A stretch of 44,694 nt of DNA from a virus (taxonomy: Duplodnaviria; Heunggongvirae; Uroviricota; Caudoviricetes). The translations under genes were made by a program, and so were the position numbers. Under the pieces are notes generated by a model. The model was given only the letters and a program-made list of their open reading frames with translations. It was not told the origin of the DNA and did no database searches. The stretch lies in the IMG/VR virus record IMGVR_UViG_638341196_000008. The stretch is one strand, 5' to 3'. Below are positions 11,411 through 12,184 of this stretch, one piece after another. Each line of letters starts with the position of its first letter. The stretch's first letter is position 1.

Positions 11411-11566
11411 TTTAACGTATGTCGCCAATTTCCTGATGAAGGTGACTGGCGACTTGCTGTTGTATGTCCTTCTCAGAAAATTGTTTTTGAATAACAAATA
11501 ACAGGATTTTATAATCTCTTAACCTTATAACATGTGTGGTCTGAAATAATAATTAAGGAGATTATC

Positions 11567-12139
11567 GTGCTATCTTACTTAATGGCAATTCACTTTGTTT
11601 TATTTGGAAACTCTACTAATTTAAAAAACTTCTGGAAACATGAAGTAATTCGGCGGAAACGTATGGATATCTGGAGGCTTTTAAGAGAGAAAAAGCAGCG
11701 TAACCGGAATTTCCTTTTCTGGTGGCGGTTGGCTAACGAAATGTATATTAATGGTAATAAATTACATAAGAAAGCAGCCAAAAAGTTAAACAGTAAAATA
11801 ATTAACAAGTTTGGTTGTGAAATAGGATTGGGCGCAAATATTGGAAAAGGGTTGACAATTCCCCATCATGCTGGAATTGTTGTTCATTTTGCTGTTGATG
11901 CGGGTGAAAATCTGGTATTACGACAGAATACTACCATTGGACAGATAGATGGTGATATGCCTGGTTCAAGAGTAAAAATTGGTAGTAACGTTGATATCGG
12001 AGCTAATTGTTGCATCATTGGATTATCACGTAAAATTGGGGATAATGTAAAAATAGGTGCAATGTCTTTTATAAATAAAGATATACCATCAAATTGCACA
12101 TATATAACTAAAAAGAGTGGTGTTGTATTGTATAAATAG
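11567..12139 (+). CDS. Hexapeptide-repeat (left-handed beta-helix) acetyltransferase, cargo gene in AT-rich segment
   Basis: Repeats IGLGANIGKGLTI / VKIGSNVDIGANCCIIG / IGDNVKIGA typical of CysE/NeuO/WcaB-type O-acetyltransferases; SD AAGGAG then GTG at 11567. Confidence 0.75.
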   Translation: MLSYLMAIHFVLFGNSTNLKNFWKHEVIRRKRMDIWRLLREKKQRNRNFLFWWRLANEMYINGNKLHKKAAKKLNSKIINKFGCEIGLGANIGKGLTIPHHAGIVVHFAVDAGENLVLRQNTTIGQIDGDMPGSRVKIGSNVDIGANCCIIGLSRKIGDNVKIGAMSFINKDIPSNCTYITKKSGVVLYK

Positions 12140-12148
12140 AGTACATAA

Positions 12149-12184
12149 AGCCATCGATATTTTTGTCGATGGCTTTTTCTTTTT
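12149..12184. terminator. Rho-independent terminator (9-bp stem agccatcga/tcgatggct, then T-run) between acetyltransferase and tfa
   Basis: Hairpin plus tttttcttttt read directly. Confidence 0.6.

What the first reader, a model, noticed from the sequence alone, without database searches (positions are those of the whole stretch)
11476..12182. AT-rich hexapeptide-repeat acetyltransferase cassette next to the tail genes
A self-contained module (own SD, own terminator, low GC) encoding a left-handed beta-helix acetyltransferase sits at the junction of the inverted tail block and tfa, corresponding to the Z/fun hotspot if the inversion is undone. Prophage-borne hexapeptide O-acetyltransferases such as NeuO modify surface polysaccharide, so this may be a lysogenic-conversion gene.
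Basis: partly seen in the sequence, partly recalled or inferred. Interest (0 to 1): 0.5.

Follow-up and report, generated by a model that had tools for sequence, protein, structure and literature searches.

The report
Prophage acetyltransferase linked to tail-fibre genes
A small, self-contained gene in a P2-like E. coli prophage encodes an acetyl-transferring enzyme that databases label "serine acetyltransferase" but that more likely acetylates the cell's lipopolysaccharide core, the receptor used by the phage tail fibres it travels with.

Summary
Window 11476-12182 is a 33% GC cassette (window 52%). It has a TTGAAT-17-TATAAT promoter-like site, an AAGGAG ribosome-binding site, a 190-aa ORF (GTG 11567 to 12139) and a hairpin terminator. 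The protein folds confidently as a left-handed beta-helix acetyltransferase, closest to CysE.

It is not a real serine acetyltransferase. It scores far below the curated cut-offs, lacks the full N-terminal domain and the CysK-binding tail, and keeps the Asp/Glu-His dyad but not the serine-binding residues. It is under purifying selection (dN/dS 0.10-0.17), while the neighbouring tfa is a pseudogene.

Relatives sit convergent with tfa and tail-fibre genes in P2-, P1- and Mu-like phages, at the Z/fun site in canonical P2 order, and inside the Cin-invertible segment of P1-like plasmids. Chromosomal relatives lie inside LPS-core clusters (Leminorella, Halomonas, Pseudomonas).

Best reading (about 0.55): a cytoplasmic O-acetyltransferase that modifies an envelope glycan, probably LPS core, for receptor masking or lysogenic conversion. 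The function is inferred from context, not shown. It is not NeuO-like and has no phase-variation tract. It is a new member of a known kind, of moderate interest.

The parts
11487..11515 (+). Sigma-70 promoter-like site: -35 TTGAAT, 17-nt spacer, -10 TATAAT
   Evidence: 10 of 12 matches. It is identical in L153, whose SAT coding sequence has dS of about 1.9 relative to the window. It is weaker in L143 and L152 and absent from the P1-like copies, which have a different upstream region.
11555..11560 (+). Shine-Dalgarno AAGGAG, 6 nt before the start codon
   Evidence: Sequence. Conserved in L143, L152 and L153.
11567..12139 (+). CDS of 190 aa (GTG start, TAG stop): a CysE-like left-handed beta-helix acetyltransferase. 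PGAP calls it 'serine O-acetyltransferase'; it matches phrog_2154, function unknown.
12147..12186 (+). Intrinsic terminator: 13-bp stem, 4-nt loop, then TTCTTTTTAT. It overlaps the stop codon of the convergent tfa.
   Evidence: sequence.
12183..12770 (-). Convergent tail-fibre assembly gene (tfa, P2 gpG equivalent), the conserved partner of the cassette. In this window it is a pseudogene with an N-terminal frameshift and an amber codon at W99.
   Evidence: Caudo_TAP 5e-34. The intact 192-aa version is in O157:H7. The lesions are visible in the three-frame translation. A 47-nt gap between SAT and tfa is conserved in most viral loci.

Best explanation
The cassette is a prophage 'moron' at the equivalent of the P2 Z/fun site. 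In the lysogen it is probably transcribed from its own sigma-70 promoter, independently of the late tail operons, and stopped by its own terminator.

Its product is a soluble, probably trimeric, acetyl-CoA-dependent O-acetyltransferase of the CysE-like branch of the left-handed beta-helix superfamily. His100 would act as the general base, polarised by Glu85. The acceptor pocket has diverged from that of serine acetyltransferase.

[quoted passage not shown] The most likely target is the LPS core oligosaccharide on lipid A, before MsbA flips it. The acetylated core is then displayed on the surface and alters the receptor read by LPS-core-binding tail fibres. These include the fibre tip and chaperone module with which the gene is inherited. 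The expected result is lysogenic conversion and exclusion of superinfecting phages at the adsorption step.

Shown here: the ORF, the expression signals, the fold, the retained catalytic dyad, the loss of the serine-binding residues, purifying selection, and the genomic linkages. Inferred: the acetyl donor, the trimer, the acceptor and the phenotype.

For: (2) Not serine-specific. CysE D92, D157, R192 and H193 are not conserved. Scores are far below the curated cut-offs.

(3) Functional. dN/dS is 0.10-0.17 across variants, and the ORF is intact although the adjacent tfa is a pseudogene.

(4) Linkage to receptor-binding genes. A tfa lies convergent and immediately downstream in 64 of 79 viral loci, in lineages from 100% down to 45% SAT identity. 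Further examples are Citrobacter phiNP, a Salmonella Mu-like prophage, Proteus and Buttiauxella prophages next to tail-fibre genes, and P1-like phage-plasmids, where the gene lies inside the Cin-invertible segment between U' and tfa. phiNP was shown experimentally to use LPS core as its receptor (PMC6456863).

(5) Chromosomal family members lie inside LPS-core clusters. Leminorella has waaB-waaO-waaY-waaZ-[X]-waaL. Halomonas has waaZ-[X]. Halopseudomonas has hldE-msbA-Kdo kinase-[X]. Pseudomonas has Kdo-family kinases x3, a carbamoyltransferase, a GT2 and then [X], with msbA further on, and the [X] start overlaps the GT2 stop.

(6) Other prophages pair the gene with LPS-related genes: a GT25 glycosyltransferase in Xenorhabdus and an HtrL/YibB protein in L159.

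(7) The gene occurs in 530 of 5426 complete E. coli genomes, including O157:H7 and other strains. This fits a conserved acceptor such as the core better than a serotype-specific polymer.

Against: There is no biochemical or phenotypic evidence for any acceptor. The one paper found that comments on the gene's role says its role is unknown (PMC9603915).

The window protein is only 41-51% identical to the members in LPS-core clusters, and acceptor specificity changes readily in this superfamily.

Several family members sit in contexts with no obvious LPS link. These include an EPEC plasmid near bfp, stand-alone chromosomal genes, and a position after int in phage ESSI2_ev040.

To my knowledge O-acetylation of the E. 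coli core has not been reported (from memory, not checked).

The Z/fun locus is a known hotspot for anti-phage systems with unrelated mechanisms (bioRxiv 10.1101/2022.05.12.491691).

Linkage to tfa could simply reflect a permissive insertion site next to a recombination-prone module.
Confidence: 0.55

Rival explanations
1. The chemistry and purpose are the same, but the acceptor is a different envelope glycan: O-antigen, colanic acid, enterobacterial common antigen or a capsule. This would be NeuO- or WcaB-style polysaccharide O-acetylation rather than LPS-core modification.
For: The best NCBIfam matches include the exopolysaccharide enzymes EpsC (3e-21) and WcaB (7e-15). One relative is divergent from an AT3-SGNH O-antigen-type acetylase. 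Another lies beside arnT, arnE/F and ugd.
Against: All these matches are far below the curated cut-offs (75.8 against 150 bits; 54.9 against 196). No family member examined lies in a wca, capsule or O-antigen cluster, whereas four lie in core clusters. The gene is spread across many E. coli backgrounds, which argues against a serotype-specific acceptor.
Confidence: 0.17
2. It is an anti-phage or counter-defence cargo that acetylates something other than a glycan, for example a small molecule, an antibiotic-like compound, a nucleotide signal or a phage component. It sits at Z/fun because that locus collects defence genes.
Against: PADLOC gives no match. The genes next to chromosomal relatives are LPS-core biosynthesis genes, not defence islands. 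The xenobiotic acetyltransferases are much more distant structurally than serine acetyltransferase.
Confidence: 0.15
3. It is a true serine O-acetyltransferase, an auxiliary metabolic gene that boosts O-acetylserine and cysteine synthesis, as the database annotation says.
For: PGAP and other sources name it serine (O-)acetyltransferase. The nearest solved structures and the nearest sequence families are serine acetyltransferases.
Against: It scores 61.7 bits against the 210.65-bit cut-off of TIGR01172, and 36.8 against 397 for PRK11132. No SATase_N domain is detected. The serine-binding residues D92, D157, R192 and H193 are not conserved in 96 family members. There is no C-terminal CysK-binding tail: the protein ends ...VLYK and aligns only as far as CysE residue ~241. 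No genomic context involves cysteine metabolism.
Confidence: 0.05
4. It is a decaying passenger gene with no current function in a defective prophage.
For: The prophage in the window is damaged. Its tfa has a frameshift and an amber codon, and its gpD region is split into two ORFs.
Against: The ORF is intact and 100% identical at the protein level to copies in other strains. dN/dS is 0.10-0.17 across lineages. The family is conserved in about 76 clusters at 50% identity with E<=1e-30.
Confidence: 0.03

Closest known systems
CysE serine O-acetyltransferase (TIGR01172 / PRK11132; PDB 1t3d, 4n69, 6wye)
   Different: The protein is 190 aa against 273. The first ~80 residues of the N-terminal domain and the C-terminal CysK-binding tail are missing. 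The serine-binding residues are not conserved. Scores are 3- to 10-fold below the curated cut-offs.
Short SAT-like polysaccharide O-acetyltransferases WcaB (colanic acid) and EpsC
   Same: Similar size and architecture. They are the best NCBIfam matches (EpsC 3e-21, WcaB 7e-15). They are cytoplasmic enzymes that act on glycan intermediates (from general knowledge).
   Different: Scores are below the family cut-offs. The family signatures differ (FWWRLANEMY, RQNTTIG, GAMSF). The gene is found in phage tail-fibre modules and LPS-core clusters, not in wca or eps clusters.
NeuO, the prophage CUS-3 polysialic acid O-acetyltransferase (PDB 3jqy)
   Same: It is a prophage-borne beta-helix O-acetyltransferase. 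By analogy it modifies a surface glycan that phages use as a receptor. That it lies next to the receptor-binding protein gene in CUS-3 is from memory.
Oac of Shigella phage Sf6 and other AT3-type O-antigen acetylases used in lysogenic conversion
   Same: The proposed biological role is the same: a phage-encoded O-acetylation of LPS that changes the receptor or serotype.
   Different: Oac is an integral-membrane acyltransferase-3 protein that acts on the periplasmic side. The window protein is soluble, has a beta-helix fold, and would act in the cytoplasm.
P2 fun(Z) and other cargo of the Z/fun hotspot
   Same: It has the same locus and orientation in canonical-order relatives: between G/tfa and FI, on the opposite strand. 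It has its own expression signals and an atypical GC content.
   Different: The protein is unrelated. The mechanism of fun(Z) is unknown, and no exclusion phenotype has been tested for this gene.

Membership tests
CysE serine O-acetyltransferase | Whole-protein score above the curated equivalog cut-off | tested here: not met
   TIGR01172 scores 61.7 bits against a cut-off of 210.65. PRK11132 scores 36.8 against 397.
CysE serine O-acetyltransferase | Full N-terminal alpha-helical SATase_N domain | tested here: not met
   Pfam gives no SATase_N hit even at E<=1. Only about 82 helical residues precede the beta-helix. The alignment to E. coli CysE leaves large gaps over CysE residues 1-110.
CysE serine O-acetyltransferase | Catalytic Asp143-His158 dyad (E. 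coli numbering) | tested here: met
   Glu85 and His100 in the window protein. The family has D/E in 96 of 96 members and H in 95 of 96.
CysE serine O-acetyltransferase | L-serine/L-cysteine binding residues Asp92, Asp157, Arg192 and His193 (residue list recalled from the E. coli and H. influenzae structure papers) | tested here: not met
   The aligned positions are Q, P, S and R in the window protein, and they vary across the 96 family members. The CysE sequence used was verified as identical to PDB 1t3d.
CysE serine O-acetyltransferase | C-terminal tail ending in Ile that binds CysK | tested here: not met
   The protein ends ...SGVVLYK and stops about 30 residues before the CysE C-terminus in the alignment.
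NeuO-type prophage capsule O-acetyltransferase | Closest sequence or structure relationship to NeuO and the Maa/LacA/NodL subfamily | tested here: not met
NeuO-type prophage capsule O-acetyltransferase | Phase-variable 5' tandem heptanucleotide repeats | tested here: not met
   Tandem Repeats Finder finds nothing in 11350-12300 at a minimum score of 30.
NeuO-type prophage capsule O-acetyltransferase | Acetylation of a surface polysaccharide | not testable with these tools
   Needs chemical analysis of envelope glycans from isogenic strains.
WcaB/EpsC short SAT-like exopolysaccharide acetyltransferases | Score above the curated cut-off | tested here: not met
   EpsC scores 75.8 against 150. WcaB scores 54.9 against 196 and 53.5 against 194.65.
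WcaB/EpsC short SAT-like exopolysaccharide acetyltransferases | Gene embedded in a glycan biosynthesis cluster | tested here: inconclusive
   The window gene is in a prophage. Relatives 41-51% identical lie in LPS-core clusters, not in wca or eps clusters.
P2 Z/fun-locus cargo (moron / defence hotspot) | Position between G (tfa) and FI, transcribed opposite to the tail genes | tested here: met
   This is met literally in L154, L157, L158 and L170. In the window lineage the FI-U block is reversed, so the gene lies between tfa and U but remains convergent with tfa.
P2 Z/fun-locus cargo (moron / defence hotspot) | Own promoter and terminator, and atypical base composition | tested here: met
P2 Z/fun-locus cargo (moron / defence hotspot) | Protection against other phages | not testable with these tools
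   There is no PADLOC model match. Plaque and adsorption assays are needed.
PHROG phrog_2154 (phage protein family of unknown function) | Full-length profile match | tested here: met
   E = 2.1e-87, covering residues 13-190 against profile positions 3-181 of 185.

The most novel reading that the evidence does not exclude
The acetyltransferase, the tail-fibre tip and its chaperone form one horizontally exchanged module. The enzyme masks the LPS-core epitope that the linked fibre recognises, so a phage that acquires a new host-range module also acquires the matching self-exclusion function. The module moves between P2-, P1- and Mu-like phages and even sits inside Cin-type invertible segments. 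If so, this would be the first beta-helix-type LPS-core O-acetyltransferase to be described. Its chromosomal relatives would be the long-sought core O-acetyltransferases of Pseudomonas and other Gammaproteobacteria.
Probability: 0.3. Interest if true: 0.65.

Novelty: new member of a known kind. Interest (0 to 1): 0.42.

Why it matters
The gene is present in about one in ten complete E. coli genomes, including O157:H7 strains, and in P1-like phage-plasmids. It is uniformly annotated as a cysteine-pathway enzyme, which the sequence evidence here contradicts.

If it acetylates LPS core, it would change phage susceptibility in lysogens, which matters for phage typing and phage therapy. It might also change how the immune system recognises the core. 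It would show that receptor-modifying and receptor-binding functions are inherited together.

It would also give a concrete candidate family for the unidentified LPS-core O-acetyltransferases noted in the Pseudomonas literature (PMC8005017). That question would become directly testable with one knockout and one mass spectrum.

Tried and rejected
- PADLOC scan for known defence proteins: no match for the acetyltransferase, and only a weak DarG hit for the macro protein.
- Tandem-repeat search for a NeuO-style phase-variation tract: nothing found.
- Literature searches for a described function: five full-text searches and targeted reads. Among the papers found, two mention the gene (or its phiNP homologue) and only one comments on its role. 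The P1-like JL22 paper states that the reason for its presence is unknown. The Citrobacter paper lists it as a 'fitness' gene.
- tblastn of the window's tfa, H, U, T and macro proteins against the chromosomal loci L003-L082: no hits. Those contexts were therefore typed with Pfam and NCBIfam instead.
- A conserved neighbour among the chromosomal loci: only waaZ recurs, in Leminorella and Halomonas.
- Co-divergence of SAT and tfa: Spearman rho is 0.53 over 66 pairs. The pairs are not independent, so this only suggests co-inheritance.
- Macro domain and acetyltransferase as a two-gene system: rejected. Most loci with the acetyltransferase lack the macro gene.
- The inversion as a local rearrangement that created the junction: rejected. 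It is lineage-wide.
- The afdb50 fold library was unavailable.
- A first PHROGs call failed because of an in-frame stop in the tfa pseudogene.

Full report
**What is there**

The finding covers window 11476-12182. An ORF runs 11534-12139 on the + strand. The biologically likely start is GTG 11567, six bases after an AAGGAG at 11555-11560. NCBI's pipeline uses the same start for the 99.5%-identical protein WP_000954203.1 in E. coli O157:H7. In the P1-like copies it is an ATG. The product is 190 aa.

The cassette is strongly AT-rich:
- GC is 0.327 over the finding and 0.34 over the CDS, with GC3 of 0.28.
- The whole window has GC 0.522, and the adjacent tape-measure and gpU genes have 0.55.

A promoter-like site, TTGAAT-17-TATAAT, lies at 11487-11515. 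A 13-bp hairpin followed by TTCTTTTTAT lies at 12147-12186. The number of promoter-like sites in the region is not above chance (4 found, 3.3 expected). However, this site is identical in locus L153, whose coding sequence differs from the window at saturating synonymous distance (dS about 1.9). There are no tandem repeats.

**Genomic setting**

The window begins in the host genes yfcJ and flk and then enters a P2-like prophage. The order is: hok/gef, ogr and a split gpD on the minus strand; FI, FII, E, T and U on the plus strand; the acetyltransferase on the plus strand; then tfa, a macro-domain gene, and H, I, J, W and V on the minus strand.

Relative to canonical P2 order, the FI-U block is reversed. 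This is not a private rearrangement:
- All 42 viral loci with a SAT at least 96% identical that reach upstream of the gene have gpU on the + strand 160 nt before it. So does a relative with only 71% SAT identity and 77% gpU identity.
- O157:H7 has the same order at a different chromosomal site.
- 284 complete E. coli genomes carry at least 80% of the first 12.2 kb of this window.

In another P2-like lineage (L154, L157, L158, L170; SAT 48-66% identical) the order is canonical. There the homologue sits between G/tfa and FI on the opposite strand, which is the Z/fun locus.

**What the protein is**

- Pfam sees only weak hexapeptide repeats.
- The best NCBIfam matches are EpsC (75.8 bits, cut-off 150), CysE TIGR01172 (61.7, cut-off 210.65), WcaB (54.9, cut-off 196) and full-length CysE PRK11132 (36.8, cut-off 397). 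All are far below their thresholds and cover only the C-terminal catalytic part.
- phmmer against the PDB gives serine acetyltransferases at 1e-12.
- An AlphaFold2 model built on 96 homologues has pLDDT 96.6. It shows five helices (residues 2-82) followed by a beta-helix.
- The top 50 Foldseek matches are all serine acetyltransferases (TMq 0.61-0.76, mostly 0.70-0.75; 18-32% identity).

I aligned E. coli CysE to the 96-member family. The alignment shows:
- The catalytic dyad is retained: D143 aligns with D/E in 96 of 96 members and H158 with H in 95 of 96.
- The residues that bind serine or cysteine in CysE (D92, D157, R192, H193; residue list from memory of the structure papers) are P, S, R and Q in the window protein and vary across the family.
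- The CysK-binding C-terminal tail is absent.

The protein is thus a CysE-like acetyltransferase with a different acceptor. The database name 'serine acetyltransferase' is very probably an over-annotation.

There is no transmembrane segment. The protein matches phrog_2154, 'unknown function', at 2e-87. The tight family is small: 76 clusters at 50% identity have E<=1e-30, and nearly all members are 170-205 aa.

**Is it functional?**

Pairwise dN/dS between the window gene and variants from other phages is 0.10-0.17. In this window the adjacent tfa carries a frameshift and an amber codon, and gpD is split. The acetyltransferase nevertheless remains 100% identical in protein sequence to copies in other strains. 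It occurs in 530 of 5426 complete E. coli genomes.

**Where relatives live**

(a) In phages:
- Of 79 viral loci, 64 have a Caudo_TAP tail-fibre assembly gene immediately downstream and convergent, typically 47 nt away. They span SAT lineages from 100% down to 45% identity.
- The next gene is a tail fibre of very variable length.
- The same arrangement occurs in Citrobacter phage phiNP, a Salmonella Mu-like prophage, and Proteus and Buttiauxella prophages.
- In P1-like phage-plasmids such as JL22 the gene lies between U' and tfa. It sits inside 602-bp inverted repeats next to cin, so it is within the invertible C segment.
- Some copies occupy other cargo sites: after int in ESSI2_ev040, at a prophage edge next to hok, and on an EPEC plasmid next to bfp.

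(b) In chromosomes, members 41-51% identical are embedded in LPS-core biosynthesis clusters:

| Organism (locus) | Gene order, [X] = family member |
|---|---|
| Leminorella grimontii (L003) | waaB - waaO-type GT8 - waaY - waaZ - [X], convergent with waaL |
| Halomonas (L014) | waaZ - [X] |
| Halopseudomonas (L005) | hldE, msbA, Kdo-kinase-like - [X] |
| Pseudomonas (L186) | three Kdo/WaaP-family kinases - carbamoyltransferase - GT2 - [X] - ... - msbA |

In the Pseudomonas locus the start codon of [X] overlaps the GT2 stop, and 19 similar places were not shown.

(c) Two prophages pair the gene with other LPS-related genes: a family-25 glycosyltransferase in Xenorhabdus and an HtrL/YibB protein in L159.

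**Interpretation**

The best-supported reading is a constitutively expressed moron encoding a cytoplasmic O-acetyltransferase. It would act on an envelope glycan, most likely the LPS core, during assembly at the inner face of the inner membrane. Core assembly at that site is stated in PMC8005017.

P2 and P1 tail fibres use LPS core as their receptor (general knowledge), and phiNP does so experimentally (PMC6456863). Acetylation would therefore alter the receptor for the class of fibres the gene travels with, giving lysogenic conversion and exclusion at the adsorption step. The broad distribution across E. coli backgrounds favours a conserved acceptor over a serotype-specific one.

This remains an inference from context. 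No acceptor has been demonstrated, identity to the core-cluster members is moderate, and some contexts are uninformative.

Rival explanations:
- Another glycan acceptor (0.17).
- A non-glycan target linked to the defence-hotspot nature of Z/fun (0.15).
- A genuine serine acetyltransferase (0.05; contradicted).
- A dead passenger gene (0.03; contradicted).

**Comparison with known systems**

The gene works like the prophage O-acetylation systems used in lysogenic conversion, such as NeuO and Oac, but it belongs to neither family. NeuO is a different beta-helix subfamily and is phase-variable. Oac is a membrane AT3 protein. By fold the window protein is a CysE-like paralogue, closest in architecture to the short WcaB/EpsC-type enzymes, but below their family thresholds. 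It fails four of the five defining CysE features tested.

**Novelty and verdict**

The gene is widely sequenced and consistently mis-named. Of the papers found, only one comments on its role, and it says the role is unknown (PMC9603915). The proposed role is a new member of a known kind of system.

Two points add interest. First, the gene is physically coupled to tail-fibre specificity modules across three phage types, including inside an invertible segment. Second, its chromosomal relatives are candidates for the still-unidentified LPS-core O-acetyltransferases (PMC8005017).

Interest is 0.42. Confidence in the main explanation is 0.55.

Noticed in passing
window 12769-13671 (-): A 300-aa macro-domain protein (Pfam Macro 9.5e-19; phrog_2613, function unknown) is inserted between the tail-fibre gene H and tfa, in the same operon orientation. 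It is present in the O157:H7-type prophages and, as a 64%-identical 269-aa version, in L152. It is absent from most loci that carry the acetyltransferase and from JL22, where tfa directly follows the fibre gene. Its Cys-rich C-terminal ~130 residues match no family. It may be a second, independent cargo, for example ADP-ribose-related counter-defence.
   Followed up: partly
window 12183-12770 (-): The tail-fibre assembly gene is a pseudogene in this window, with a frameshift after about codon 11 and a TGG-to-TAG change at W99. The flanking acetyltransferase is intact. The H gene also ends differently from the O157:H7 copy (708 aa against 719).
   Followed up: yes
window 4559-11410; L001, L153, L180: The FI-FII-E-T-U tail block is oriented opposite to canonical P2 order. 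This holds across a whole prophage lineage found at two or more chromosomal sites (yfcJ-flk here; near uvrC-pgsA-tRNA in O157:H7). The gpD region next to it is split (ORFs 4559-5287 and 5372-5800) or annotated as a short VgrG/Pvc8-family protein. I did not determine whether any member of this lineage is a viable phage.
   Followed up: partly
window 30503-33232 and 40930-43659: Two 2,730-bp copies, 100% complementary, lie in inverted orientation and flank a 7,697-bp segment. The ORF pattern (about 115-aa and 429-aa ORFs) suggests an IS66-family element, so this is a composite-transposon-like arrangement. The content of the enclosed segment was not examined.
   Followed up: no
L002 (phage-plasmid JL22) 4402-9865: In P1-like phage-plasmids the acetyltransferase sits in the middle of the Cin-invertible C segment. 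602-bp inverted repeats flank 4,260 bp, which is larger than the roughly 3-kb unique part I recall for P1. Its orientation relative to the late promoter would therefore switch with the tail-fibre choice.
   Followed up: partly
L186/L187 5001-5555; L003 5947-6519; L014 5911-6396: Family members are embedded in the LPS-core gene clusters of Pseudomonas, Leminorella and Halomonas, twice directly after the Kdo-III transferase gene waaZ. They are candidates for core O-acetyltransferases, which PMC8005017 says have not been identified.
   Followed up: partly
L087-L090 5001-5594: A 50%-identical homologue lies on EPEC plasmids just downstream of a type IV pilus operon (prepilin peptidase and SLT genes, i.e. 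bfp-like), among IS66 fragments. This context has no phage or LPS link.
   Followed up: no
window 13690-15816 (-): The tail-fibre protein H contains three consecutive near-identical repeats of about 45 aa (…[40 protein letters not shown]…), visible in the translation. At the DNA level these could promote recombination and length variation. This fits the very variable fibre lengths seen next to identical SAT-tfa modules.
   Followed up: no
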